From: a virus | Strand: one strand, 5' to 3' | UHGV virus genome: UHGV-0373465 | DNA: 33,338 bases | In this document: positions 3,439 through 27,926 of the stretch, piece after piece | How positions within the stretch are numbered: position 1 is the first letter of the stretch | Layout: every line of letters begins with the position of its first letter | Program-made: the position numbers and the translations under genes | The notes under the pieces: model-generated | Told to the model about the DNA's origin: nothing | Database searches by the model: none | The model's input: only the letters and a program-made list of their open reading frames with translations

Positions 3439-3710
3439 GTATTCGTATTGAAATTGGCGAACGTTATGTCGTTACCAGTGACAGCTTTCAGTTTATTCTC
3501 CACGAGAAAAAGAGAGCGGAAAGCGGTAAAAACGCCGGTCAGGAATGGCTGTCGGTGGTTGGTTATTACCCGAAATTAAGCCAGCTCGTTTCCGGCATGA
3601 TGCATCACGATATTCTGACCGGAAGCGCAAAGTCTTTTGCTGATTTAAACGCGCAGGTTGAGCAACTCAGCAAGCGTTGTTCAGAGGCTTTTGGCTCATA
3701 TGGCCGTTAA
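3435..3710 (+). CDS. Hypothetical early protein (P2 orf83 position)
   Basis: 91-aa ORF directly upstream of A and overlapping it. Confidence 0.5.
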   Translation: MSIRIEIGERYVVTSDSFQFILHEKKRAESGKNAGQEWLSVVGYYPKLSQLVSGMMHHDILTGSAKSFADLNAQVEQLSKRCSEAFGSYGR

Positions 3711-5985
3711 AGCCTCCGGGCGTTTTGTCCCTCCATCAGCATTTGCCGCAGGCACCGGTAAGGCGTTTACCGGTGCTTATGCATGGAACGCGCCACGCGA
3801 GGCTGTCGGGCGCGAAAGACCCCTTACACGTGACGAGATGCGTCAGGTGCAAGGTGTTTTATCCACGATTAACCGCCTGCCTTACTTTTTGCGCTCGCTG
3901 TTTACTTCACGCTATGACTACATCCGGCGCAATAAAAGCCCGGTGCACGGGTTTTATTTCCTCACATCCACTTTTCAGCGTCGTTTATGGCCGCGCATTG
4001 AGCGCGTGAATCAGCGCCATGAAATGAACACCGACGCGTCGTTGCTGTTTCTGGCAGAGCGTGACCATTATGCGCGTCTGCCGGGGATGAATGACAAGGA
4101 ACTGAAAAAGTTTGCCGCCCGTATCTCATCGCAGCTTTTCATGATGTATGAGGAACTCTGCGATGCATGGGTTGATGCACATGGCGAGAAAGAATCGCTG
4201 TTTACGGATGAGGCTCAGGCGCATCTGTATGGTCATGTTGCTGGCGCTGCACGAGCTTTCAATATTTCCCCTCTCTACTGGAAAAAATACCGTAAAGGAC
4301 AGATGACCACGAGGCAGGCATATTCTGCCATTGCCCGTCTGTTTAACGATGAGTGGTGGACTCATCAGCTTAAAGGTCAGCGTATGCGCTGGCATGAGGC
4401 GTTACTGATTGCTGTCGGGGAGGTGAATAAAGACCGTTCTCCTTATGCCAGTAAACATGCCATTCGTGATGTGCGTGCGCGCCGCCAGGCAAATCTGGAA
4501 TTTCTTAAATCGTGTGACCTTGAAAACAGGGAAACCGGCGAGCGCATCGACCTTATCAGTAAGGTGATGGGAAGTATTTCTAATCCTGAAATTCGCCGGA
4601 TGGAGCTGATGAACACCATTGCCGGTATTGAGCGTTACGCCGCTGCAGAGGGTGATGTGGGGATGTTTATCACGCTGACCGCGCCGTCAAAGTATCACCC
4701 GACACGTCAGGTCGGAAAAGGCGAAAGTAAAACCGTTCAGCTTAATCACGGCTGGAACGATGAGGCATTTAATCCAAAGGATGCGCAGCGTTATCTCTGC
4801 CGTATCTGGAGCCTGATGCGCACGGCATTCAAGGATAATGATTTACAGGCCTACGGTTTGCGTGTCGTCGAGCCACACCACGACGGAACGCCGCACTGGC
4901 ATATGATGCTTTTTTGTAATCCACGCCAGCGTAACCAGATTATCGAAATCATGCGTCGCTATGCGCTCAAAGAGGATGGTGACGAAAGAGGAGCCGCGCG
5001 AAACCGTTTTCAGGCAAAGCACCTTAACCGGGGCGGTGCTGCGGGATATATCGCGAAATACATTTCAAAAAATATCGACGGCTATGCACTGGATGGTCAG
5101 CTCGATAACGATACCGGTAAGCCGCTTAAAGATACTGCCGCGGCTGTTACCGCATGGGCGTCAACGTGGCGCATCCCGCAATTTAAAACGGTTGGACTGC
5201 CGACAATGGGGGCTTACCGTGAACTACGCAAATTGCCTCGCGGCGTCAGTATTGCTGATGAGTTTGACGAACGCGTCGAGGCTGCTCGCGCTGCCGCAGA
5301 CAGTGGTGATTTTGCGTTGTATATCAGCGCGCAGGGTGGGGCAAATGTCCCGCGCGATTGTCAGACTGTCAGGGTTGCCCGTAGCCCGTCGAGTGACGTT
5401 AACGAGTACGAGGAAGAAGTCGAGAGAGTGGTCGGTATTTACGCGCCGCATCTCGGCGCGCGTCATATTCATATCACCAGAACGACGGACTGGCGCATTG
5501 TGCCGAAAGTTCCGGTCGTTGAGCCTTTGACTTTAAAAAGCGGCATCGCCGCGCCTCGGAGTCCTGTCAATAACTGTGGAAAGCTCACCGGCAGTGATAC
5601 TTCGTTACCGGCTCCCACACCTTATGAACATGCCGCAGCCGTGCTTAATCTGGTTGATGACGGTGTTATCGAATGGAATGAGCCAGAGGTCGTGAGGGCG
5701 CTCAGAGGTGCATTAAAACACGAACTGAGAACACCAAATCGTCAGCAGAGAAACGGAAGCCCGTTAAAACCACATGAAATAGCGCCATCGGCCAGACTGA
5801 CCCGGTCGGAACGAACGCAAATTACCCGTATCCGCGTTGACCTTGCTCAGAACGGTATCAGGCCGCAGCGATGGGAGCTTGAGGCGCTGGCGCGTGGCGC
5901 GACCGTAAATTATGACGGGAAAAAATTCACGTATCCGGTCGCTGATGAGTGGCCGGGATTCTCAACAGTAATGGAGTGGACATAA
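3700..5985 (+). CDS. A: Rolling-circle replication initiator endonuclease gpA
   Basis: ORF 3658-5985; the internal ATG at 3700 gives 761 aa, the recalled P2 gpA length; contains a rolling-circle Rep-like motif (GAAGYIAKYISK). Confidence 0.85.
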   Translation: MAVKASGRFVPPSAFAAGTGKAFTGAYAWNAPREAVGRERPLTRDEMRQVQGVLSTINRLPYFLRSLFTSRYDYIRRNKSPVHGFYFLTSTFQRRLWPRIERVNQRHEMNTDASLLFLAERDHYARLPGMNDKELKKFAARISSQLFMMYEELCDAWVDAHGEKESLFTDEAQAHLYGHVAGAARAFNISPLYWKKYRKGQMTTRQAYSAIARLFNDEWWTHQLKGQRMRWHEALLIAVGEVNKDRSPYASKHAIRDVRARRQANLEFLKSCDLENRETGERIDLISKVMGSISNPEIRRMELMNTIAGIERYAAAEGDVGMFITLTAPSKYHPTRQVGKGESKTVQLNHGWNDEAFNPKDAQRYLCRIWSLMRTAFKDNDLQAYGLRVVEPHHDGTPHWHMMLFCNPRQRNQIIEIMRRYALKEDGDERGAARNRFQAKHLNRGGAAGYIAKYISKNIDGYALDGQLDNDTGKPLKDTAAAVTAWASTWRIPQFKTVGLPTMGAYRELRKLPRGVSIADEFDERVEAARAAADSGDFALYISAQGGANVPRDCQTVRVARSPSSDVNEYEEEVERVVGIYAPHLGARHIHITRTTDWRIVPKVPVVEPLTLKSGIAAPRSPVNNCGKLTGSDTSLPAPTPYEHAAAVLNLVDDGVIEWNEPEVVRALRGALKHELRTPNRQQRNGSPLKPHEIAPSARLTRSERTQITRIRVDLAQNGIRPQRWELEALARGATVNYDGKKFTYPVADEWPGFSTVMEWT

Positions 5986-6437
5986 TGGCAAAAATTCACG
6001 AGGTAAAGCTGCACGCAAAATATTTCGACCTTGTGCTGGAAGGAAAGAAACGTGCAGAGTTCCGGAAAAATGACCGTAATTATGAGCGCGGGGACACGTT
6101 GATTTTGTATGAATGGGTGCAGGGTGTGTATACGGGGCGAAATGTTGAAGCCCGGATAACAGATGTTACTGACCTGTCAGACTGGCTGGAAGATTATGTC
6201 TTGCTAAGTATTGAGCTGCTTAATACAGGCGCATATGAGATTGTGAACTGGAAAGAACTTAGTGAGCGTGGCCTGGTATTCAGAATTAATCATGAAATTA
6301 TGCATCAGCTCGGCCTTGCTGTTATGTATGAACCAGAGACGGGGATGTCTGGCGGGGCAATGGTTGCCACGGATGGAGCATGGAACTATTCAGATGAACA
6401 GATGGAGCGTGCACAGCAAAACGGGTGGCTTGGATAA
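5985..6437 (+). CDS. ASCH/DUF3850-like (PUA-fold) domain protein with C-terminal extension
   Basis: ATG at 5985 overlaps the A stop (TAATG) and has a GGAG Shine-Dalgarno; N-terminus KIHEVKLHAKYFDLVLEGKKRAEFRKNDRNYERGDTLIL resembles DUF3850/ASCH proteins; first gene of the accessory island. Confidence 0.55.
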   Translation: MAKIHEVKLHAKYFDLVLEGKKRAEFRKNDRNYERGDTLILYEWVQGVYTGRNVEARITDVTDLSDWLEDYVLLSIELLNTGAYEIVNWKELSERGLVFRINHEIMHQLGLAVMYEPETGMSGGAMVATDGAWNYSDEQMERAQQNGWLG

Positions 6438-6643
6438 TGCACAGAATACCAGGCGAGATACCGCACCATAAAACTAAAAATATCAAGCTGATGGCTATTG
6501 TTCAGCGTTTACAGCGGATTATGGTCAACGAAAATCTGACGCCCGATGAGCTGGTCGGGTGTGCCGAAATAGTCCGGGATAATTACGGGCGGTTTAACCA
6601 TATCGGTCAGTCCAGAGTTGCGCCACCACAACGCAGACGATAG
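6425..6643 (+). CDS. Hypothetical small protein (start uncertain)
   Basis: 72-aa ORF overlapping the 3' end of the ASCH-like gene; no recognisable motif; alternative ATGs at 6437 and 6491. Confidence 0.25.
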   Translation: MAWIMHRIPGEIPHHKTKNIKLMAIVQRLQRIMVNENLTPDELVGCAEIVRDNYGRFNHIGQSRVAPPQRRR

Positions 6644-6830
6644 AGAACGCCGCCAGTCGTGAAACTTGTTTTCAGGGCTGGCGGGGTTGAATAACGAGTG
6701 TCGCGAGGCGTTAGTTTGAGCTTACAATTAAACCTATTGAAAATTAATGAGAAGTCAATTTTATCTTTTTCTCGTTAAAGATGGCCACAACTACTAAAAC
6801 GTGAGAATATCAAGACTTGGCAAAATCTAG

Positions 6831-6885
6831 CTTTTCCCAACGGGGTGTTTCGCTATAATACGCGGTCGGTTTTTAGGAGGGGTCA
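6831..6885 (+). promoter_or_regulatory. Putative sigma70 promoter and RBS for the methyltransferase gene
   Basis: Perfect TATAAT at 6854-6859 in an AT-rich spacer (6650-6885); weak -35 near 6831-6837; AGGAGG at 6875-6880 ahead of ATG 6886. Confidence 0.4.
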
Positions 6886-7824
6886 ATGCCAACTGTAGTT
6901 TCACTTTTTTCTGGATGTGGTGGTTCTGATGCGGGAGTTTTGAACGCAGGTTTCAATGTGCTTATGGCAAATGATATTTTGCCTTACGCAAGGGACGTTT
7001 ACTTAGAAAACCATCCTGAAACTGACTACATTTTGGGCGATATCTCAGGGCTCCAGTCGTTCCCTTCTGCTGAGTTGCTCATCGGATGCTATCCTTGCCA
7101 AGGATTTAGTCAAGGTGGGGCAAGGAAGGCAGATAGAAAGATTAATACACTATATTTAGAGTTTGCCCGTGCTTTGAGTAAAATTAAGCCAAAAGCATTC
7201 ATTGTAGAGAATGTCTCTGGTATGGTAAGGCGTAACTTTGAGCATTTATTAAAGGATCAATTCAAAGTTTTCGAAGAAGCAGGTTATACAGTAAGCTCGC
7301 AAATTCTGAATGCGTCCCATTATGGGGTATCCCAAGATAGGAAGCGAATCTTTATCGTAGGAATACGAAAGGACTACGGTATTACATACAAATTTCCAAA
7401 ACCAACACATGGTGATGGTTTGACACCATATTCCACAATTCGTGATGCTATTGGGCATATGCCTGTTTGGCCTGTTGGCGAGTTTTATGACGCCGATTTT
7501 CATTGGTATTATCTATCGCGAAACCGTAGGCAAGATTGGGATCAGATATCTAAAACAATTGTTGCAAATCCTAGACATATGCCTCTACATCCAATAAGTC
7601 CAACATTAGAAAAATTGGGACCTGATAAGTGGCAATTTACTTCGGATGCACCAGCTCGTAGGTTTAGCTATCGAGAGGCTGCTATTTTACAAGGTTTTGG
7701 GGATTTAATTTTCCCAGAAACTGAACGGGCTTCTATTAATATGAAATATACTGTGGTAGGTAATGCAGTACCGCCTCCATTGTTTGAGGCGGTTGCTAGA
7801 AACCTTCCAGATTTATGGGATTAA
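6886..7824 (+). CDS. DNA (cytosine-5)-methyltransferase, compact (312 aa)
   Basis: C5-MTase motifs in canonical order: FSGCGG (motif I, AdoMet binding), GCYPCQGFSQGG (motif IV, catalytic PCQ), FIVENVSGM (motif VI, ENV), QDRKRIFIVG (motif VIII), VVGNAVPPPL (motif X). AT-rich codon usage unlike the phage backbone. Confidence 0.85.
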   Translation: MPTVVSLFSGCGGSDAGVLNAGFNVLMANDILPYARDVYLENHPETDYILGDISGLQSFPSAELLIGCYPCQGFSQGGARKADRKINTLYLEFARALSKIKPKAFIVENVSGMVRRNFEHLLKDQFKVFEEAGYTVSSQILNASHYGVSQDRKRIFIVGIRKDYGITYKFPKPTHGDGLTPYSTIRDAIGHMPVWPVGEFYDADFHWYYLSRNRRQDWDQISKTIVANPRHMPLHPISPTLEKLGPDKWQFTSDAPARRFSYREAAILQGFGDLIFPETERASINMKYTVVGNAVPPPLFEAVARNLPDLWD

Positions 7825-8858
7825 GCAGCGATCGCGCTGGAAGGATCAAGGATGATATCTAGATAGCTAATATTTTGACTGTGATCAATATTATCAGATG
7901 CTCTGGTTAAATTGATTAATCTTAGGCGATCAACAAAAATAGCATCGCCTAACTTATTTTTATGCGCCCACTCACCATCTATCCATCGTAGATCTTGAGG
8001 TAAGAAATAATAAGTTGCCCATCGGTGAGCTACGGGGAATTTACTGTAGAGCATCGCAGGTGAGGCCTCAAGCTGCTTCGCTTCCCACTCTTCTTGAGAA
8101 CAGCCACACTGAACAAAAGAAATAGGGATGGCATCTCGTTGATCTCCCATTGGATGCCAGGCAATTATGTCAAGGCCTCCGTCACCACTATTTCCTCGAC
8201 TGAAATCTCGTTCTTTGAAGTTCGCTGTGCAACGGATATCGGAAGCAATACTCTTAAATTTATTATATAGAGTTCCAGTGTAAGGGGCCGCTTGACCACC
8301 AGAAGCCCAGCATGCTTTTATTATGCTACCGCTAGGCATTAGGCTTTCAAAAATAGGTAAACTAATTAGTTCAAAACTGCGCGTTATCTCTCTTCTGCTC
8401 ATTATGTTGACATATTTTATGTTAGCACAGATTAGTAAAGCTAAATATAGTCTTTCTAAATGTTCCAGTGGCTTTTCTGATATATCACGTAACTCTACAG
8501 TATCGTTGTCTTCTGATAAAGTAAAAGGGTAACTATCCCCAAATAAATCAATGCGTTGTCGTATGAAGCCTATCGCATAGCTCCACTTTCTGTCAGTATA
8601 TGCTCGACTAACACTTCGTTTTGTTCTCTTGCGTACAGGCGTATCATTTTCATCATCAACATCATAAACGCCCTCTTCTTCTGCTTCATCTGTTTCAGCT
8701 AGTACTGCTTCGGGTTGAGCTTGCAGTGTGCTATATAGGTCTCCTCGACTGAATGACCTGTCGATATTAGTTAAGGCCAATATCTCAATATAATCAGCCC
8801 ATAAATAAGGCTCATTAGAAGGCATTGAATCAAGATTTGTAATCATAATCTCAATCAT
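7821..8858 (-). CDS. Hypothetical protein, distal gene of minus-strand operon; candidate effector/nuclease (unproven)
   Basis: ORF 7821-8930; start likely at ATG 8858 or 8846, just after a GGGAGG and 3-8 nt from the upstream gene's stop. Its stop codon overlaps the MTase stop by 2 nt (convergent). Acidic stretch AETDEAEEEGVYDVDDENDT; no confidently recognised domain. Confidence 0.6.
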   Translation of the reverse strand: MIEIMITNLDSMPSNEPYLWADYIEILALTNIDRSFSRGDLYSTLQAQPEAVLAETDEAEEEGVYDVDDENDTPVRKRTKRSVSRAYTDRKWSYAIGFIRQRIDLFGDSYPFTLSEDNDTVELRDISEKPLEHLERLYLALLICANIKYVNIMSRREITRSFELISLPIFESLMPSGSIIKACWASGGQAAPYTGTLYNKFKSIASDIRCTANFKERDFSRGNSGDGGLDIIAWHPMGDQRDAIPISFVQCGCSQEEWEAKQLEASPAMLYSKFPVAHRWATYYFLPQDLRWIDGEWAHKNKLGDAIFVDRLRLINLTRASDNIDHSQNISYLDIILDPSSAIAA

Positions 8859-9924
8859 CCTCCCTTTTGCTTCTGATCTGATTTCTAATATTTTTTGACA
8901 TCTCAAAAATTTCAGATGCAGCCTCTTCATGCTCTAATGTTAATTCTTTAGCTTTAAGTAGCATATCCCAAACTACTCTTAATTTAACACTAGCTGCGTT
9001 TAGTGCTTTATCTAATGCTTCTCTTTCTCCGCTGGTATATAGATATGCTTCATCCAAGTTTGAACTTTTCATGAGAATTTCAATTGCTTCGGGTTTCTCA
9101 ACCACTGCTGCAATATCTTTTATTCTTCGAGACTCACCGATGATGGTTCTACCTTGTTGGTCAGGCACAAAAAACCAAGAGAATAAACGCTTAAGGTTTT
9201 CTTCATTTAAATTTGGGTCTAAAAAATCCTTTTTATCCTGTAGACCTAACCAGTTTGTGATTTTTGAATATCCCAAAGCTGTGGTTATATATGAAAATTC
9301 CACGTCAGAAGCCTTCATGGGTAAATTAAAAAACTCATGGTCATGCGCGACTTCATATAAGTTCAGTGCAGTGAGAAGTGTTGCAACATAATGTGGTTTA
9401 CTCCCAATCTCACGAGCCAGATTTTTTAATACTATCTCTTTAGGCTCATGTGAATAAAAAGTATCACATAACTCTTTAAGGTATTTGGCTTTAGATAATG
9501 AGTCCCATTCTTTGACCCCAGTTATATGACGATAACCGATATATCTCAGTACATCCTCTCGGTTTTCATAAATGATGCAGGGAAGCTTCTTAGGTTTATT
9601 GGTAGTATCATCAATGATTTCTTGCACACCTTTAAGTTTTCTTTTTGGAGGAAGCAGATCTCCATTGAGCAACTTTACAGCAGCTAAGCGTCTGTTTCCC
9701 TCAACCACGATGTAGTTTCCATTGCTTTTTACTGCCAATAAAGGTTCTCCAGGAAAGTAACCTTGCTGACCGATTGATAGCATTAGATCGTGGACACTTT
9801 CGTCATCTAACATTTCCTCAATGACTGTTGCAGCGTTACTGGCATCATTGAGACGAAAGAAACGTGGGTTTTTAGGGTCAAAATCAAGCTTATTTGTCTC
9901 AATTTCTACGATTTTGTTATCCAT
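8851..9924 (-). CDS. ParB/Srx-like N-terminal domain protein (DUF262/DndB-like superfamily candidate)
   Basis: ORF 8851-10056; start preferred at ATG 9924 (GAGG Shine-Dalgarno 5 nt upstream; alternatives 9981 and 10056). N-terminal region has the ParB-type signature YIVVEGNRRLAAVKLL about 75 residues in; the C-terminal two-thirds are helical and unassigned. Confidence 0.6.
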   Translation of the reverse strand: MDNKIVEIETNKLDFDPKNPRFFRLNDASNAATVIEEMLDDESVHDLMLSIGQQGYFPGEPLLAVKSNGNYIVVEGNRRLAAVKLLNGDLLPPKRKLKGVQEIIDDTTNKPKKLPCIIYENREDVLRYIGYRHITGVKEWDSLSKAKYLKELCDTFYSHEPKEIVLKNLAREIGSKPHYVATLLTALNLYEVAHDHEFFNLPMKASDVEFSYITTALGYSKITNWLGLQDKKDFLDPNLNEENLKRLFSWFFVPDQQGRTIIGESRRIKDIAAVVEKPEAIEILMKSSNLDEAYLYTSGEREALDKALNAASVKLRVVWDMLLKAKELTLEHEEAASEIFEMSKNIRNQIRSKREDD

Positions 9925-10151
9925 CTTAACCTCATGGGATGATGTAAATATCTTTTGGGGGATGCTTGATAAAACATCCATATTTGATCGTTTGCAGCGC
10001 ATTTGATACATCGAAGTGTACAAAAATGCTGGGCATAACTCTGCATTAAAATGCATTCACATTCAAAGAACTATTTTCTCGTTGGACATTTAGCCTAAGA
10101 GAGTTTGGACGGCTTTTGGAATTGCATCAAAACCGACCCATGAAGCGGGCG

Positions 10152-10170
10152 GGCGAGGCGGGGAAAGCAC
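10152..10170. other. cos: cos cohesive-end site (P2-type 19-nt GGCGAGGCGGGGAAAGCAC)
   Basis: Exact 19-mer that I recall as the P2 cohesive end, about 170 bp beyond the 3' end of portal gene Q, the expected position. Confidence 0.6.
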
Positions 10171-10339: not shown

Positions 10340-11374
10340 TCAGCCGTTGTCAGTGTCCAGTGAGTAGTTTTTAAATCGGATGACCTCCTGACCGAGCCAG
10401 CCGTTTATCTCGCGGATCCTGTCCTGTAACGGGATAAGCTCATTGCGGACAAAGACCTTTGCTACTTTCTCAATATCACCCAGCGACCCGACGTTCTCCG
10501 GCTTGCCGCCCATCAACTGAAAGGGGATGCGGTGCGCGTCCAGCAGGTCAGCGGCGCTGGCTTTTTTGATATTAAAAAAATCGTCCTTCGTTGCCACTTC
10601 ACTGAGCGGGATAATTTTAATGCCGTCAGCTTTCCCCTGCGGGGCATAGAGAAACAGGTTTTTAAAGTTGTTGCGGCCTTTCGACTTCACCATGTTTTCG
10701 CGAAGCATTTCGATATCGTTGCGATCCTGCACGGCATCAGTGACGTACATGATATATCCGGCATGAGCGCCGTTTTCGTAATACTTGCGGCGGAACAGCG
10801 TGGCCGACTCATTCAGCCAGGCAGAGTTAAGGGCGCTGAGATATTCCGGCAGACCGTACAGCTCCTGATTAATATCCGGCTCCAGCAGGTGAAACACGGA
10901 GCCGGGCGCGAAAGGTGTCGGCTCGTTGAAGGACGGCACCCACCAGTAAACATCCTCCTCCACGCCACGGCGGGTATATTTTGCCGGTGAGGTTTCCAGT
11001 CTGATGACCTTACCGGTGGTGCTGTAACGCTTTTCCAGAAACGCATTACCGAATACCAGAAAATCCAGCACAAAGCGGCTGAAATCCTGCTGAGAAAGCC
11101 ACGGGTGTGGGATAAACGTTGAGGCCAGAATGTTACGTTTGACGTAAATCGGTGAGCTGTGATGCACGGCAGCACGCAGGCTTTTTGCCAGACCGGTAAA
11201 GCTGACCGGTGGCTCATACCATCTGCCGTTACTGATGCACTCGACGTAATCCAGAATGTCACGGCGGTCGAGTACCGGCACCGGCTCACCAAAGGTGAAT
11301 GCCTCCATTTTCGGGGCGCTGGCGGTCATTTTTTTTGCCGCAGGTTGCGGTGTTTTCCCTTTTTTCTTGCTCAT
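10340..11374 (-). CDS. Q: Portal protein gpQ
   Basis: 344 aa, identical to recalled P2 gpQ length; adjacent to and co-oriented with the terminase large subunit. Confidence 0.85.
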   Translation of the reverse strand: MSKKKGKTPQPAAKKMTASAPKMEAFTFGEPVPVLDRRDILDYVECISNGRWYEPPVSFTGLAKSLRAAVHHSSPIYVKRNILASTFIPHPWLSQQDFSRFVLDFLVFGNAFLEKRYSTTGKVIRLETSPAKYTRRGVEEDVYWWVPSFNEPTPFAPGSVFHLLEPDINQELYGLPEYLSALNSAWLNESATLFRRKYYENGAHAGYIMYVTDAVQDRNDIEMLRENMVKSKGRNNFKNLFLYAPQGKADGIKIIPLSEVATKDDFFNIKKASAADLLDAHRIPFQLMGGKPENVGSLGDIEKVAKVFVRNELIPLQDRIREINGWLGQEVIRFKNYSLDTDNG

Positions 11375-19477: not shown

Positions 19478-20263
19478 TTATGAGTGATTTTTATTTGATG
19501 CTTTGTATTCTAAAACCTTCTTATTGGCGTAAAAGAATTTTGTATATGACAGGAATATAACCAGACCTGAAGTGAAATAGACGAGGGATAGTATTAATAA
19601 TGCTTTTTTGTGACTGTTATTATCTTTAATCTCCTGGCTTAACCATTCGGAGTCCTCCTCGTTTAGCTGTAAGAGCTTATTGCAGGCGATCTCAGGAAGT
19701 GTGTCTTTTATAAATACGTTTTGCAGTCTCTTGCAATCGGCAAGGCTATAAGTTTTATTAAATTCAACTGCTTTATTTTTGAAGGATAAAAGAACTTTGT
19801 CACTATAAACATAGTACATCATGTTTTTATATGGTATGCCTATGGCATCCCTTACTATAACGGATTGTTCGTTGTGTATATAACATGCGAAGAGAATATA
19901 AATAATGCTGGACAGAATTACAATTATTGTTTTAATTATGTGTGGTGGTTTTGTTATGTCACCCCAGAAGCGAGTAAGAAAAAAATACGATGTTTTTAGT
20001 TTTCCATCAATCAGCCCCTGCTGTATCATTCTCACATCTTCGATGCCTGATACATTGATTCCGTTAATTATTTTAAATAGTTGAATGTCGCGCCATTTTT
20101 TGTCGAGCATTTTTAACTTTCTGTCTGAATACTCAAAATTGAAATAATGTGCAATAAACCTCATAAGATTACTTTTACCAAAGGTAATAAATGTTAATGC
20201 TATTAATAAAAATAGATACAAAGAGATAAACCACCACGCATTAGTCACATTATCACTGAACAT
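19478..20263 (-). CDS. Hypothetical three-TM membrane protein (moron at the P2 orf30 position)
   Basis: 261 aa, very AT-rich, antisense to the flanking late genes; predicted transmembrane helices at the N-terminus (WWFISLYLFLLIALTFITF), middle (IIKTIIVILSSIIYILFACYI) and C-terminus (ALLILSLVYFTSGLVIFL). Confidence 0.65.
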   Translation of the reverse strand: MFSDNVTNAWWFISLYLFLLIALTFITFGKSNLMRFIAHYFNFEYSDRKLKMLDKKWRDIQLFKIINGINVSGIEDVRMIQQGLIDGKLKTSYFFLTRFWGDITKPPHIIKTIIVILSSIIYILFACYIHNEQSVIVRDAIGIPYKNMMYYVYSDKVLLSFKNKAVEFNKTYSLADCKRLQNVFIKDTLPEIACNKLLQLNEEDSEWLSQEIKDNNSHKKALLILSLVYFTSGLVIFLSYTKFFYANKKVLEYKASNKNHS

Positions 20264-24773: not shown

Positions 24774-25301
24774 ATGCAGCATTTGATAAATATAACGGCA
24801 GGTAATCCAAAAACGGTTGAACAATATCAATTGACAAAGGACTTTGATGTTGTCTGGTTTTTTACAGAAGATGGTAAGAACTGGTACGAAGAACAAAAGT
24901 ATTTTGCTGATGACACGATAAAAATAGCGTACGACAAAGATAATATTATCCGCTATGTAGAAAAGGATGTGACAGCTATCAGACCGGATGGATTAAGTGT
25001 TGTTGAAGTGCCGGATATTACTGCTAACCGACGGGCGGACATTTCAGGGAACTGGATGTTTAAGGACGGCAAAGTGATTAAACGCATTTATACGGCAGAG
25101 GAATTACAACAGCAGGCAGAAATTCGGAAAGCCAGACTTCTTGCAGATGCTGAATCCGTGATTTTGCCGCTGGAGCGCGCTGTCAGGCTGAATATGGCAA
25201 CAGATGAGGAGCGCAGCCGACTGGAAGCATGGGAACGCTACAGCGTTCTGGTCAGTCGTGTGGATCCTGCAAATCCTGAATGGCCGGAAATGCCGCAATA
25301 A
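24774..25301 (+). CDS. G: Tail fibre assembly chaperone gpG
   Basis: 175 aa, equal to recalled P2 gpG; directly downstream of H; AT-rich like the H C-terminus. Confidence 0.8.
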
Positions 25302-25516: not shown

Positions 25517-26416
25517 ATGAGTGGTATTCGTATAACTCAGGCTATTGATAACAATCAGATTTTAGTAAATGTAAATACTTTTAATTATAGTGTTAATCCC
25601 TATCCACTCAAATGTCCTGACCCAAATTGCTCTGCTCATTTGGTGTATGTCAAAAGCCATATTCGTCGGAGTTTTAATAAAACCTTGCATATCCCCGCCT
25701 TCTTTAGACTGGAAAAAAATTTCACGCATGACAAATTATGCCAGTATGGAACTTCAGGATTGAATACAATTTATGCAAGTGATTCCAGTCATGATATCAG
25801 CCGTGCGCTTGCCACAGGTAATAATATATTCCGTATACATATACTCGATGAAGATGATATCTCTAAATTAAGCAGAAAAGCTGCAGCTATGCAGGCAAAT
25901 CCACCTTCTGATACTACAGACCGCGTTTATGTCAAGAGAGGTCGGAAAGCCCCTTATGTGAAGAACATGGATAGCTTACGGGAGATCTATGAATATGGAA
26001 AAGCTCACCCCAACAAGAGAAACAGCATAAAAATTGTTACTGGAACAAGTACTGTAACGTGGTCTGATTTTTTCTATGAAACAACGCAGTTAGAACGATT
26101 GTCAACTTACCTCCAGAAAGTAAAAATAGCTCAGGTTGCTGTAATTATGAAAGTGCATGTGGCGAGAATCCCTATGGCGAAATTTAATTATCGACACTTC
26201 ATTGAAGGTTCGCCAATGAGGATAAAAGGGGGCTTTAATATATATCCTACGATTCAATTAGGAAATGTTACTCCAAAATTATTTCCGTTGAGTAGCATTG
26301 TCATGGTACTCGGTAAATTTACTATTCCAACAAATAGAAAAATGATAATGGATCCAATATTTGAGCGTGAAGTCAGAACCATAGTTTCTAGTGAAGAGCA
26401 AGTGCTAATTCTTTGA
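25517..26416 (+). CDS. Hypothetical protein at the P2 Z/fun slot (possible Z/fun-like superinfection-exclusion gene)
   Basis: 299 aa, strongly AT-rich, own RBS (GGAGGAG before ATG 25517), flanked by about 215 bp and 320 bp non-coding spacers between G and FI; no recognisable catalytic motif. Confidence 0.6.
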   Translation: MSGIRITQAIDNNQILVNVNTFNYSVNPYPLKCPDPNCSAHLVYVKSHIRRSFNKTLHIPAFFRLEKNFTHDKLCQYGTSGLNTIYASDSSHDISRALATGNNIFRIHILDEDDISKLSRKAAAMQANPPSDTTDRVYVKRGRKAPYVKNMDSLREIYEYGKAHPNKRNSIKIVTGTSTVTWSDFFYETTQLERLSTYLQKVKIAQVAVIMKVHVARIPMAKFNYRHFIEGSPMRIKGGFNIYPTIQLGNVTPKLFPLSSIVMVLGKFTIPTNRKMIMDPIFEREVRTIVSSEEQVLIL

Positions 26417-26735: not shown

Positions 26736-27926
26736 ATGAGTGACTATCATCACGGCGTGCAGGTGCTGGAGATTAACGACGGCACCCGCGTCATTTCCAC
26801 CGTATCCACCGCCATTGTTGGCATGGTCTGCACGGCCAGCGATGCGGATGCGGAAATCTTCCCCCTCAATAAACCAGTGCTGATTACCAATGTGCAGAGC
26901 GCAATTGCAAAGGCCGGTAAAAAAGGCACGCTGGCGGCATCGTTGCAGGCCATCGCCGACCAGTCAAAACCGGTCACCGTTGTCGTGCGTGTGGAAGACG
27001 GCACCGGCGACGACGAGGAAACGAAACTTGCGCAGACCGTTTCCAATATCATCGGCACCACCGACGAAAACGGTCAGTACACCGGACTGAAAGCCCTGCT
27101 GGCGGCGGAGTCGGTAACCGGTGTTAAACCGCGTATTCTCGGCGTGCCGGGGCTGGATACCAAAGAGGTGGCTGTTGCACTGGCATCAGTCTGTCAGAAG
27201 CTGCGCGCTTTCGGATATATCAGCGCATGGGGCTGTAAAACCATTTCCGAGGTGAAAGCCTATCGCCAGAATTTCAGCCAGCGTGAGCTGATGGTCATCT
27301 GGCCGGATTTCCTCGCATGGGATACGGTCACCAGCACCACCGCCACCGCGTATGCCACCGCCCGTGCGCTGGGTCTGCGTGCCAGAATCGACCAGGAGCA
27401 GGGCTGGCATAAAACGCTGTCCAATGTCGGGGTGAACGGTGTTACCGGCATCAGCGCATCTGTATTCTGGGATTTGCAGGAGTCCGGCACCGATGCTGAC
27501 CTGCTTAACGAGTCAGGCGTCACTACGCTGATTCGCCGCGACGGTTTCCGATTCTGGGGTAACCGTACCTGCTCTGATGACCCGCTGTTCCTCTTTGAAA
27601 ACTACACCCGCACCGCGCAGGTGCTGGCCGACACGATGGCTGAGGCGCACATGTGGGCGGTGGACAAGCCCATCACCGCAACGCTGATTCGCGACATCGT
27701 TGACGGCATCAATGCCAAATTCCGTGAGCTGAAAACAAACGGCTATATCGTGGATGCGACCTGCTGGTTCAGCGAAGAATCCAACGATGCGGAAACCCTT
27801 AAGGCCGGAAAACTGTATATCGACTACGACTATACCCCGGTGCCTCCTCTTGAAAACCTGACCCTGCGCCAGCGTATTACCGATAAATACCTGGCAAATC
27901 TGGTCACCTCGGTTAACAGCAATTAA
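26736..27926 (+). CDS. FI: Contractile tail sheath protein gpFI
   Basis: 396 aa, equal to recalled P2 gpFI; followed by the tube gene. Confidence 0.85.
   Translation: MSDYHHGVQVLEINDGTRVISTVSTAIVGMVCTASDADAEIFPLNKPVLITNVQSAIAKAGKKGTLAASLQAIADQSKPVTVVVRVEDGTGDDEETKLAQTVSNIIGTTDENGQYTGLKALLAAESVTGVKPRILGVPGLDTKEVAVALASVCQKLRAFGYISAWGCKTISEVKAYRQNFSQRELMVIWPDFLAWDTVTSTTATAYATARALGLRARIDQEQGWHKTLSNVGVNGVTGISASVFWDLQESGTDADLLNESGVTTLIRRDGFRFWGNRTCSDDPLFLFENYTRTAQVLADTMAEAHMWAVDKPITATLIRDIVDGINAKFRELKTNGYIVDATCWFSEESNDAETLKAGKLYIDYDYTPVPPLENLTLRQRITDKYLANLVTSVNSN

What the first reader, a model, noticed from the sequence alone, without database searches (positions are those of the whole stretch)
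5985..10170. Accessory island at the P2 tin/old defence hotspot (between gpA and cos)
Seen in sequence: about 4 kb of AT-rich DNA with five ORFs inserted exactly between the replication gene A stop (5985) and the cos-like 19-mer (10152-10170). Established knowledge: in P2 this slot holds tin and old, both phage-exclusion genes, and in P2-like prophages it is a known hotspot that swaps diverse anti-phage systems. Inference: the contents here (ASCH-like protein, small ORF, MTase, ParB-like protein, unknown protein) are a lineage-specific cargo replacing tin/old and are likely to act in inter-phage competition.
Basis: partly seen in the sequence, partly recalled or inferred. Interest (0 to 1): 0.7.

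Follow-up and report, generated by a model that had tools for sequence, protein, structure and literature searches.

The report
ParB-nuclease-methylase cassette in P2 hotspot
This AT-rich stretch is the well-known swap-in "defence slot" of a P2-like prophage (here the phage Wphi version), and its cargo is an untested but widespread three-gene unit that looks like a restriction-modification system: a cytosine methylase, a ParB-type DNA-binding protein and a restriction-type nuclease.

Summary
gpA ends at 5985, the exact P2 cos 19-mer lies at 10152-10170, and the DNA between them is AT-rich (GC 0.40 against 0.53) with five real genes. Alignment to P2 puts the variable segment at 6206-10122. The first about 73 codons of the ASCH gene (P2 orf91) are conserved P2 sequence, not cargo.

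The island is about 99% identical to phage Wphi (orf91, orf92, mth, orf96, orf98). It occurs in 104 of 5426 complete E. coli genomes and is listed, untested, in Rousset 2022 Table S5A.

The real cargo is three genes:
- a HaeIII-like m5C methylase (6886-7824, +);
- a ParB-fold protein with an HTH domain (orf98, 9924-8851, -);
- a PD-(D/E)xK nuclease (orf96, 8846-7821, -).

This trio was linked in all 30 loci examined from other bacteria and phages, and in E. coli the methylase never occurs without such a pair. PADLOC and Pfam do not recognise orf96.

Best reading: a restriction-modification-like anti-phage system whose restriction half is a ParB-type NTP switch plus a nuclease. It resembles PD-lambda-5 in design but is not a member. 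The hotspot is already known. The cargo is a new variant of a known kind, and no function has been tested.

The parts
3658..5985 (+). Replication gene A (left conserved anchor)
   Evidence: Pfam Phage_GPA E 1.2e-123. 96% nucleotide identity to P2 over 3666-6205.
5985..6437 (+). orf91 homologue: ASCH/DUF3850 domain (aa 4-76) plus DUF7415 (aa 86-128). The ATG overlaps the A stop codon. The N-terminal domain is conserved P2 sequence; the C-terminal part is variable.
   Evidence: Pfam DUF3850 9e-18, DUF7415 1.7e-14, ASCH 1.4e-10. phrog_1812 2e-81. P2 homology ends at 6205. P2 Orf91 is annotated as DUF3850.
6437..6643 (+). Small orf92 (68 aa), function unknown. It travels with orf91 and the methylase in Wphi and 12474III.
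   Evidence: phrog_11386 2.3e-38. Annotated as gp92 or hypothetical protein in Wphi, 12474III and RefSeq E. coli. 82% aa identity to 12474III.
6206..10122 (.). Variable segment relative to P2 (the actual hotspot insert), GC 0.404
   Evidence: blastn against P2 NC_001895: homology covers 3666-6205 and 10123-10170 only. GC values.
6886..7824 (+). C5 cytosine DNA methyltransferase (Wphi mth), HaeIII-like
   Evidence: Pfam DNA_methylase 9.9e-62. TIGR00675 dcm 1.8e-54. Full-length match to M.HaeIII, 1dct, E 1.6e-48, including the target-recognition region SRNR...R..LHP. Motifs FSGCGG, PCQ, ENV, QDRKR and GNAVP are visible in the translation.
7821..8846 (-). orf96: 341-aa predicted nuclease. The C-terminal part has a PD-(D/E)xK restriction-endonuclease fold. 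Its stop codon overlaps the methylase stop.
8851..9924 (-). orf98: 357-aa ParB/Srx-fold protein with a ParB/KorB-type HTH DNA-binding domain and a helical C-terminus. Its stop lies 4 nt before the orf96 ATG.
9925..10122 (-). AT-rich leader upstream of orf98, the presumed promoter region of the orf98-orf96 operon (inferred)
   Evidence: GC 0.374. No consensus sigma-70 site was found there. In P2 the old-tin transcript starts in the equivalent cos-proximal position.
10152..10170 (+). cos 19-mer (right boundary marker)
   Evidence: Identical to the P2 cosR feature and unique in the window.
10340..11374 (-). Portal gene Q (right conserved anchor)
   Evidence: Pfam Phage_portal 5.9e-14. 99.7% aa identity to 12474III Q.

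Best explanation
The slot between gpA and cos is the P2 tin/old hotspot. Here it carries the phage Wphi cargo. The functional core of that cargo is a three-gene restriction-modification-like cassette.

Proposed mechanism:
- The HaeIII-like m5C methylase, probably acting on GGCC or a GGCC-like site, marks the DNA of the lysogen and the prophage as self.
- The orf98-orf96 operon supplies the restriction activity. orf98 is a ParB-type nucleotide-binding DNA-binding protein that engages unmethylated incoming DNA. It recruits or licenses orf96, a PD-(D/E)xK nuclease of the D...QxK type, to cut that DNA.
- The net effect is exclusion of superinfecting phages and other foreign DNA. A side effect may be stabilisation of the prophage by post-segregational killing.

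Shown here:
- the position and boundaries of the island;
- the gene identities at family or fold level;
- the strict three-way gene linkage across distant bacteria and phages;
- exchange of modules between relatives.

Inferred, not shown: cleavage activity, methylation sensitivity, the recognition sequence, nucleotide binding or clamping by orf98, contact between orf98 and orf96, and anti-phage activity.
For: Position:
- Flanks are conserved with P2 and the middle is replaced.
- Relatives carry many different cargoes in this slot.
- The hotspot is published.

Methylase: a complete C5 methyltransferase.

Nuclease, orf96:
- The AF2 model is confident, pLDDT 90.8.
- Foldseek finds MspJI at E 6.6e-4.
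- Catalytic-type residues are conserved in distant homologues.

ParB-like protein, orf98: ParB/Srx fold plus ParB/KorB HTH domain, with an intact arginine-rich box II, GNRR.

Linkage of the three genes:
- In all 27 loci from beta-, gamma- and alpha-proteobacteria, the orf98 homologue lies directly upstream of the orf96 homologue and a C5 methylase is present.
- In 22 of those the methylase is adjacent and convergent. Where checked, in Methylomonas and Oryzomicrobium, it has the same 4-nt stop overlap as in the window.
- Two more distant orf96 relatives have the same three genes, all in one direction.
- A Pseudomonas Citexvirus carries the trio at a different place in its genome.
- Vsr, the repair partner typical of m5C methylases, is present or leaves a remnant in 11 of the 27 loci.
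- In 5426 E. coli genomes the methylase occurs 140 times. That equals 104 copies with this pair plus 36 with the 12474III-type pair, so it is not seen without a pair.

Other support:
- Rates of divergence fit a restriction-modification system: methylase 84%, ParB-like 64%, nuclease 48% identity in Serratia and Intestinirhabdus P2-like prophages.
- At least two of the three IS insertions seen among the 104 E. coli copies interrupt orf96. The third was not inspected.
- A validated P2-prophage system, PD-lambda-5, combines a related ParB N-domain, a nuclease-type effector and a methylase. Its authors describe it as a compacted RM+Abi system.
Against: - There are no experimental data for this cassette. 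I found no paper that names these proteins.
- PADLOC calls no complete system.
- Box II of orf98 reads GNRR, not GERR. From my own knowledge, that glutamate is needed for CTP hydrolysis in ParB, so orf98 may bind nucleotide without hydrolysing it, or may not use it at all.
- The same methylase (97.8% aa) is paired in phage 12474III with a pair only 25% and 32% identical. Conversely, similar pairs sit beside methylases only 41-43% identical. This is compatible with a shared GGCC-type target-recognition region, but it also shows that the partners are not tightly co-adapted.
- The closest structural match, MspJI, is a methylation-dependent enzyme.
Confidence: 0.6

Rival explanations
1. An ordinary Type II restriction-modification system. 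orf96 alone is the sequence-specific endonuclease. orf98 is only a KorB/ParB-like transcriptional controller, playing the part of a C protein by timing or repressing nuclease expression.
For: - The best structural match of orf98 is the repressor KorB, and it has an HTH domain.
- orf98 lies directly upstream of orf96 in one operon.
- From my own knowledge, restriction-modification systems have been reported on P2-type prophages before (EcoT38I). EcoT38I also appears among the fold hits.
Against: - orf98 is 357 aa and is the better conserved of the two: 52-64% identity against 38-49% for orf96 across orders. That is unlike the small, fast-evolving C proteins.
- Its ParB N-domain motifs are invariant.
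- In the validated relative PD-lambda-5 the same kind of ParB N-domain is fused to the effector part of the protein.
- The pair is exchanged as one unit.
Confidence: 0.2
2. Two independent functions that merely sit together. The methylase is a phage self-protection or anti-restriction enzyme (or an epigenetic regulator). orf98-orf96 is a separate two-gene, GmrSD-like or Type IV-like nuclease, or an abortive-infection module, that does not read the methylation mark.
For: - Defence systems with a ParB-superfamily sensor and a nuclease exist without their own methylase: GmrSD/BrxU, SspE, Menshen.
- The only significant Foldseek match of orf96 is MspJI, which is modification-dependent.
- The methylase and the pair can be recombined independently.
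Against: - The three genes co-occur in all 30 non-E. coli loci examined, and the methylase count in E. coli equals the pair count, 140 = 104 + 36.
- The 4-nt stop-codon overlap is kept in the Methylomonas and Oryzomicrobium loci.
- The trio moves as a block to another site in a Pseudomonas phage.
- orf98 has GNRR rather than the DGQQR motif and gave no DUF262 hit.
- The nuclease is PD-(D/E)xK, not HNH/DUF1524.
Confidence: 0.12
3. Not a defence system. The ParB-like protein serves prophage or chromosome biology, such as partition, silencing, or recruiting the methylase to DNA. orf96 is an inactive nuclease-fold DNA-binding partner.
For: - The canonical catalytic lysine is missing in most orf96 homologues.
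- ParB-fold proteins can act as partners of DNA-modifying enzymes: a ParB-dependent phage T-dioxygenase is described in PMC13229309 (abstract seen).
- The ParB-CTPase fold is often fused to methyltransferases in phages (PMC12704722).
Against: - No parA gene lies in the island.
- An integrated P2 prophage has no need for partition.
- Acidic residues, glutamine and a lysine are conserved in orf96 over 1481 sequence clusters.
- IS elements interrupt orf96 in at least two genomes.
- The location is a slot dedicated to exclusion genes.
- The chromosomal copies sit among NERD/UvrD, SNase, NYN and transposase genes.
Confidence: 0.08

Closest known systems
Phage Wphi right-end genes orf91-orf92-mth-orf96-orf98 (NC_005056 / AY135739); also listed in Rousset et al. 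2022 Table S5A (WP_000368931 + WP_001600138 + WP_000554771 + WP_001143634 + WP_001350076)
   Same: The same DNA. The window is collinear with Wphi over 4500-10151 at 98.6%, orf98 is 100% identical, and RefSeq protein ids in E. coli copies match the Rousset table entry.
   Different: Nothing of substance. Wphi annotates orf91 as shorter and orf96 and orf98 with longer starts. No function is given beyond 'DNA cytosine methylase'.
P2 tin/old locus, the P2 defence hotspot #1 (Rousset 2022; Vassallo 2022)
   Same: The same slot between gpA/orf91 and cos/Q. It is AT-rich, and the cos-proximal genes are read leftward away from cos, as old and tin are.
   Different: The cargo is unrelated to Tin or Old. 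It is three genes rather than two single-gene systems, and it includes a DNA methylase.
PD-lambda-5 (Vassallo et al. 2022): a validated two-gene system from a P2-like prophage, 'ParB/HEPN + methyltransferase'
   Same: - A ParB N-terminal domain of the same subfamily: the PADLOC PD-Lambda-5_A models match orf98 residues about 45-195 at E 3e-24.
- The design is the same: ParB-type protein plus nuclease-type effector plus DNA methylase.
- It is carried by a prophage.
- Its methylation conflicts with a host Type IV enzyme: it was cloned in a host lacking mrr.
   Different: - PD-lambda-5B is a D12-class N6-adenine methylase, whereas this one is a C5 cytosine methylase.
- PD-lambda-5A continues into a region with weak HEPN/DUF4145 similarity, whereas orf98 continues into an HTH and a helical domain.
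- Here the effector is a separate PD-(D/E)xK protein that PADLOC does not know.
Type II restriction-modification systems with HaeIII-type methylases (M.HaeIII, GGCC), and restriction-modification systems carried by P2/P4-type elements (EcoT38I, EcoO109I)
   Same: - The methylase aligns with M.HaeIII over its full length, including the target-recognition region.
- The nuclease and methylase genes converge.
- Vsr is a frequent neighbour.
- EcoT38I is among the fold hits.
- EcoO109I restriction-modification genes are listed in P4 hotspots.
   Different: The restriction side is two conserved genes, one of them a ParB-fold protein. I know of no characterised Type II enzyme with such a subunit (own knowledge, not a database check; REBASE could not be searched).
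GmrSD / BrxU / SspE / Menshen NsnA: defence proteins with a ParB-superfamily (DUF262) NTPase sensor joined to a nuclease
   Different: - The ParB branch differs: GNRR box II and a classical HTH, not the DGQQR motif of DUF262.
- The nuclease differs: PD-(D/E)xK, not HNH/DUF1524.
- Those systems attack modified DNA or sense phosphorothioate. This one is tied to its own m5C methylase.
ParB / KorB / Noc CTP-dependent DNA clamps
   Same: The fold of the N-domain and of the HTH DNA-binding domain, the box I-like (D/N)PR and box II RR motifs, and a helical C-terminus that could dimerise.
   Different: There is no ParA partner. Box II has Asn in place of the glutamate. The genetic partners are a nuclease and a methylase. 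Clamping and CTP binding are untested.

Membership tests
P2 tin/old defence hotspot (hotspot #1) | Located between replication gene A (with orf91) and cos / portal gene Q of a P2-like phage | tested here: met
   gpA at 3658-5985, cos at 10152-10170, Q at 10340-11374.
P2 tin/old defence hotspot (hotspot #1) | Conserved flanks with a middle that differs between related phages | tested here: met
   P2 homology covers only 3666-6205 and 10123-10170. Relatives carry tin/old, Fic, CDT, retron, DUF4238, ParaMORC and other cargo.
P2 tin/old defence hotspot (hotspot #1) | The cargo confers phage exclusion | not testable with these tools
   No experiment on this cargo was found.
Restriction-modification system (Type II-like) | A DNA methyltransferase with complete catalytic motifs | tested here: met
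   Pfam DNA_methylase 9.9e-62 over profile positions 2-322 of 324. Motifs I, IV (PCQ), VI (ENV), VIII and X are present.
Restriction-modification system (Type II-like) | A linked endonuclease | tested here: met
Restriction-modification system (Type II-like) | Methylase and nuclease are inherited together | tested here: met
   27 of 27 loci, two distant loci, the Pseudomonas phage, and in E. coli 140 methylase copies = 104 + 36 pair copies.
Restriction-modification system (Type II-like) | Cleavage at or near a defined sequence, blocked by the cognate methylation | not testable with these tools
   Needs biochemistry. GGCC is only inferred, from similarity of the target-recognition region to M.HaeIII.
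PD-lambda-5 | Protein A has an N-terminal ParB domain | tested here: met
   24 PD-Lambda-5_A models match, best E 3.2e-24, but only over profile positions 1 to about 160.
PD-lambda-5 | Protein A has a C-terminal HEPN-like effector region (about 450-500 aa in all) | tested here: not met
   The HMM matches stop at about residue 195. The rest of orf98 is an HTH plus helices. The effector is a separate PD-(D/E)xK gene with no PADLOC hit.
PD-lambda-5 | Protein B is a D12-class (Dam-like) N6-adenine methyltransferase | tested here: not met
   PD-lambda-5B matches PF02086 at 99.9% HHpred probability. The window enzyme is PF00145, a C5 methylase.
GmrSD-type (Type IV) restriction | A DUF262 domain with the DGQQR motif | tested here: not met
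   No Pfam DUF262 hit. The motif is EGNRR.
GmrSD-type (Type IV) restriction | A DUF1524 / HNH nuclease | tested here: not met
   orf96 has a PD-(D/E)xK fold.
Canonical ParABS ParB | ParB N-domain with GERR box II, an HTH domain, and a parA partner gene | tested here: not met
   The fold and the HTH are present. However, TIGR00180 scores 29.9 against a cut-off of 58.45, box II is GNRR, and the neighbours are a nuclease and a methylase, with no parA.
Druantia type II (the best PADLOC hit of the methylase is DruM2) | DruM together with DruE, DruF and DruG | tested here: not met
   Only the methylase matches, at 1e-110. No other island protein hits a Druantia model.

The most novel reading that the evidence does not exclude
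The orf98-orf96-methylase trio is an unrecognised, widespread class of restriction-modification system. In it a ParB-type nucleotide-gated DNA clamp, rather than a helicase or a McrB-type motor, finds unmethylated target sites. It then delivers or activates a separate PD-(D/E)xK nuclease, possibly after sliding along the DNA. In P2-like phages the restriction pair is swapped wholesale while the methylase is kept, which would let prophages renew the attacking half of the system without changing the self mark.
Probability: 0.3. Interest if true: 0.7.

Novelty: new variant of a known kind. Interest (0 to 1): 0.5.

Why it matters
The hotspot itself is textbook for P2 and adds nothing new. The cargo is more useful.

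- It is carried by about 2.6% of complete E. coli genomes (140 of 5426, counting both pair types) and by P2-like prophages of Serratia, Intestinirhabdus and Pseudomonas.
- It also sits in the chromosomes of many beta- and gamma-proteobacteria.
- Its nuclease has no Pfam, NCBIfam or PADLOC model, so current defence-system finders see only an apparently solitary methylase.
- If it works as proposed, it would link the ParB nucleotide-switch fold to classical restriction based on self-marking by methylation. It would also give PD-lambda-5 a mechanistic sibling.
- It would explain why some prophage methylases make lysogens incompatible with Type IV restriction such as McrBC and Mrr.
- It is a cheap experiment: a 3.3-kb cassette from a phage that has been in culture for decades.

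Tried and rejected
- Pfam, NCBIfam and PADLOC on orf96 gave no hits, even at E up to 10 in PADLOC.
- A sequence-profile search of PDB chains with the orf96 alignment found nothing. The orf98 alignment found only marginal ParB/Noc hits, E 0.09-0.3.
- The sigma-70 promoter and terminator scan of the island found no more sites than in shuffled sequence, and none in the orf98 leader.
- GGCC is under-represented in the whole window (observed/expected 0.65) but not in the island (8 against 8.6). I judged this uninformative, because from memory E. coli DNA is itself low in GGCC, and the window's strongest avoidance is GATC at 0.23.
- I looked for a protein that fuses orf98 and orf96. PADLOC PDC-M38A has 715 profile positions, close to the sum of the two, but orf96 does not match it. 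The best 150 orf96 relatives are all stand-alone proteins of about 170-380 aa.
- Membership in Druantia type II, PD-lambda-5, GmrSD and canonical ParABS was rejected (see the membership tests).
- Literature searches for the RefSeq protein ids, and for ParB-like + cytosine methyltransferase + restriction endonuclease + prophage, found no description of this system.
- Odegrip 2006 (PMC1367236) is not held in the library.
- The afdb50 fold library was unavailable.

Full report
WHAT IS THERE

The window is a complete P2-like prophage in its integrated order (int ... A, island, cos, Q ... tail genes).
- Gene A is at 3658-5985 (+), Pfam Phage_GPA E 1.2e-123, with its stop codon at 5983-5985.
- The 19-mer GGCGAGGCGGGGAAAGCAC at 10152-10170 is identical to the annotated cosR of P2. 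It occurs once in the window and never in shuffles.
- Portal gene Q follows at 10340-11374 (-).
- GC falls from 0.53 in A and Q to 0.404 over 6206-10122: methylase 0.41, orf96 0.40, orf98 0.37.

The sequence-level observation is therefore confirmed.

BOUNDARIES AND IDENTITY

blastn against the P2 reference shows 96% identity over 3666-6205 and 94% over 10123-10170, with nothing in between. P2 has orf91, tin and old in that space. The replaced segment is therefore 6206-10122.

Its left edge lies inside the first island gene. The ASCH/DUF3850 domain is P2 orf91 and overlaps the A stop codon (ATAATG). Only the DUF7415 tail of that protein is new.

The whole island is collinear with phage Wphi at 98.6%, covering orf91, orf92, mth, orf96 and orf98. 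It is present at 99% identity or more in 104 of 5426 complete E. coli genomes, E. coli W among them. The same five RefSeq proteins appear as one locus in Table S5A of Rousset et al. 2022. A word search of that paper's supplements found 'methylase' only in the locus tables, not in the table of systems that were cloned and tested.

Other P2-like phages carry quite different genes in this slot. The slot is the published P2 defence hotspot.

THE CARGO

Two of the five genes, orf91 and orf92, extend the early operon and are shared with phages that have other cargo. The other three form a compact unit.

1. Methylase, 6886-7824 (+). It is a complete C5 cytosine methyltransferase (Pfam 9.9e-62). It aligns with M.HaeIII from end to end, E 1.6e-48. 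The alignment includes the target-recognition stretch SRNR..W..T.VAN.RH..LHP.

2. orf96, 8846-7821 (-), 341 aa.
- It has no Pfam, NCBIfam or PADLOC match.
- Its family is large: 1481 clusters at 50% identity with E up to 0.001.
- The AlphaFold model is confident, pLDDT 90.8.
- The only significant Foldseek match is MspJI.
- E159, D222, D226, Q246, C247 and K257 are conserved even in distant homologues. One lineage has the canonical Q-C-K where the others have Q-C-G plus K257 on the next helix. This looks like a relocated catalytic lysine (inference).

3. orf98, 9924-8851 (-), 357 aa.
- It ends 4 nt before the orf96 start codon.
- Its model, pLDDT 85.8, matches KorB, PadC, sulfiredoxin, SerK and Spo0J in the N-domain. 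It matches the KorB, ParB and SopB DNA-binding domains further along.
- The motifs FDPxNPRF and VEGNRRLAA are invariant. The second corresponds to ParB box II, GERR, with Asn in place of Glu.

The stop codons of the methylase and orf96 overlap.

EVIDENCE THAT THE THREE GENES ARE ONE SYSTEM

- I examined three loci found through distant orf96 homologues and 24 loci found by scanning one genome per species. In all 27 the orf98 homologue lies directly upstream of the orf96 homologue and a C5 methylase is present.
- In 22 of them the methylase is adjacent and convergent, at 60-84% identity. The Methylomonas and Oryzomicrobium loci show the same 4-nt overlap as the window.
- In 5 loci (Comamonadaceae and a Rhizobium MAG) a methylase of 41-43% identity lies about 3 kb away, beyond a gap that in the one gene-called locus (L004, Ramlibacter) holds a gene of about 1044 aa.
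- Vsr is present or leaves a remnant in 11 of the 27 loci.
- Two more remote orf96 relatives have the same three genes, all reading in one direction.
- A Pseudomonas Citexvirus carries the trio between its regulatory genes and tail gene D, so the unit moves as a block.
- In Serratia and Intestinirhabdus the trio sits between Q and A of P2-like prophages, the same slot as here.
- In E. coli the methylase is found 140 times. That is 104 copies with this pair and 36 with the 12474III-type pair, so it is never seen without a partner pair.
- Of the three IS-bearing copies among the 104, the two inspected have IS5 and ISKpn26 inserted at different points of orf96.
- Yersinia phage L-413C keeps only a truncated 12474III-type orf98, a deletion remnant.

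MODULE EXCHANGE

Phage 12474III has the same orf91, orf92 and methylase (97.8% aa), but its orf96 and orf98 counterparts are only 24.6% and 32.2% identical. The breakpoints fall exactly at the methylase stop and just before cos. Conversely, similar pairs are found with methylases only about 42% identical. All of these methylases share the HaeIII-type target-recognition motif, so a common GGCC-type mark is plausible. It is not shown.

MECHANISM, STATED WITH ITS LIMITS

The most likely reading (about 0.6) is a restriction-modification-like exclusion system. The methylase marks self DNA. orf98, a ParB-type nucleotide-binding and DNA-binding protein, engages unmarked DNA and recruits or licenses the orf96 nuclease.

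This rests on four things: fold assignments, conserved motifs, strict gene linkage, and analogy with PD-lambda-5. PD-lambda-5 is a validated P2-prophage system made of a ParB/HEPN protein and a methylase. Its authors called it a compacted RM+Abi system and had to clone it in a host lacking mrr.

None of the following is tested: nucleotide binding, clamping or sliding, the recognition site, contact between the two proteins, cleavage, and anti-phage activity.

Rivals:
- an ordinary Type II system in which orf98 is only a KorB-like regulator (0.2);
- an independent methylase beside a Type IV-like pair (0.12);
- a role outside defence (0.08).

COMPARISON WITH KNOWN SYSTEMS

- As DNA, this is the Wphi island, so the sequence is already known.
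- As a locus, it is the P2 tin/old hotspot, which is also known.
- As a system, it shares a ParB N-domain subfamily and the overall design with PD-lambda-5. It fails two defining features of that system. The methylase is C5 rather than D12-class N6-adenine. The effector is a separate PD-(D/E)xK protein rather than a HEPN-like C-terminus.
- It is not GmrSD-like in family terms: no DUF262 and no HNH domain.
- It is not Druantia II: only the methylase matches.
- It is not a partition ParB: below the TIGR00180 cut-off and with no parA.
- I found no paper that describes it.

VERDICT

The finding is real and correctly placed. The hotspot is ordinary, published biology. The cargo is an unstudied, widespread variant of a restriction-modification system that current defence catalogues miss. 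Interest 0.5; novelty: new variant of a known kind.

Noticed in passing
window 25517-26416 (+): A 299-aa ORF in AT-rich DNA (GC about 0.37) between tail-fibre assembly gene G (24774-25301) and sheath gene FI (26736-27926). This is the P2 Z/fun slot, called the second P2 defence hotspot by Vassallo 2022. It has no Pfam or PADLOC hit and matches only phrog_7195, of unknown function.
   Followed up: partly
window 19478-20263 (-): A 261-aa ORF in a sharp AT-rich dip (GC 0.33-0.41), at what I recall as the P2 orf30 position among the late genes. It has no significant Pfam hit and no PADLOC hit, and matches only phrog_2407, of unknown function.
   Followed up: partly
L002 (phage vB_EcoM-12474III) 3362-5459, compared with window 7824-10113: The same methylase (97.8% aa) is paired with a ParB-like/nuclease pair only 32% and 25% identical, with breakpoints at the methylase stop and just before cos. 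This second pair type is in 36 E. coli genomes, mostly O145:H28.
   Followed up: yes
L034 and L035 (E. coli JXZ9A32M and 98206): IS5 and ISKpn26 insertions at two different points of orf96, with the methylase and orf98 left intact. A third IS5-bearing copy (H50) was not inspected.
   Followed up: partly
L032 (Yersinia phage L-413C) 207-1199: A lone ParB-like gene next to orf91. It is a C-terminally truncated copy of the 12474III-type orf98, with no methylase or nuclease, so it appears to be a deletion remnant of the cassette.
   Followed up: yes
L004, L026-L029 (Ramlibacter, Variovorax, Hydrogenophaga, Pelomonas, a Rhizobium MAG): In these loci about 3 kb separate the orf98-orf96 pair from a more distant (41-43% identical) C5 methylase. 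In L004 that gap holds an uncharacterised gene of about 1044 aa with no Pfam hit, which may be a fourth component of a larger variant.
   Followed up: no
window, whole: GATC is strongly avoided across the prophage: 30 observed against 129 expected, ratio 0.23. This is far more than any other 4-base palindrome. GGCC has a ratio of 0.65.
   Followed up: no
window 5985-6437 (+): The orf91 homologue carries a DUF7415 C-terminal extension that P2 Orf91 lacks. [quoted passage not shown] Its presence next to a ParB-fold gene here may or may not be a coincidence.
   Followed up: no
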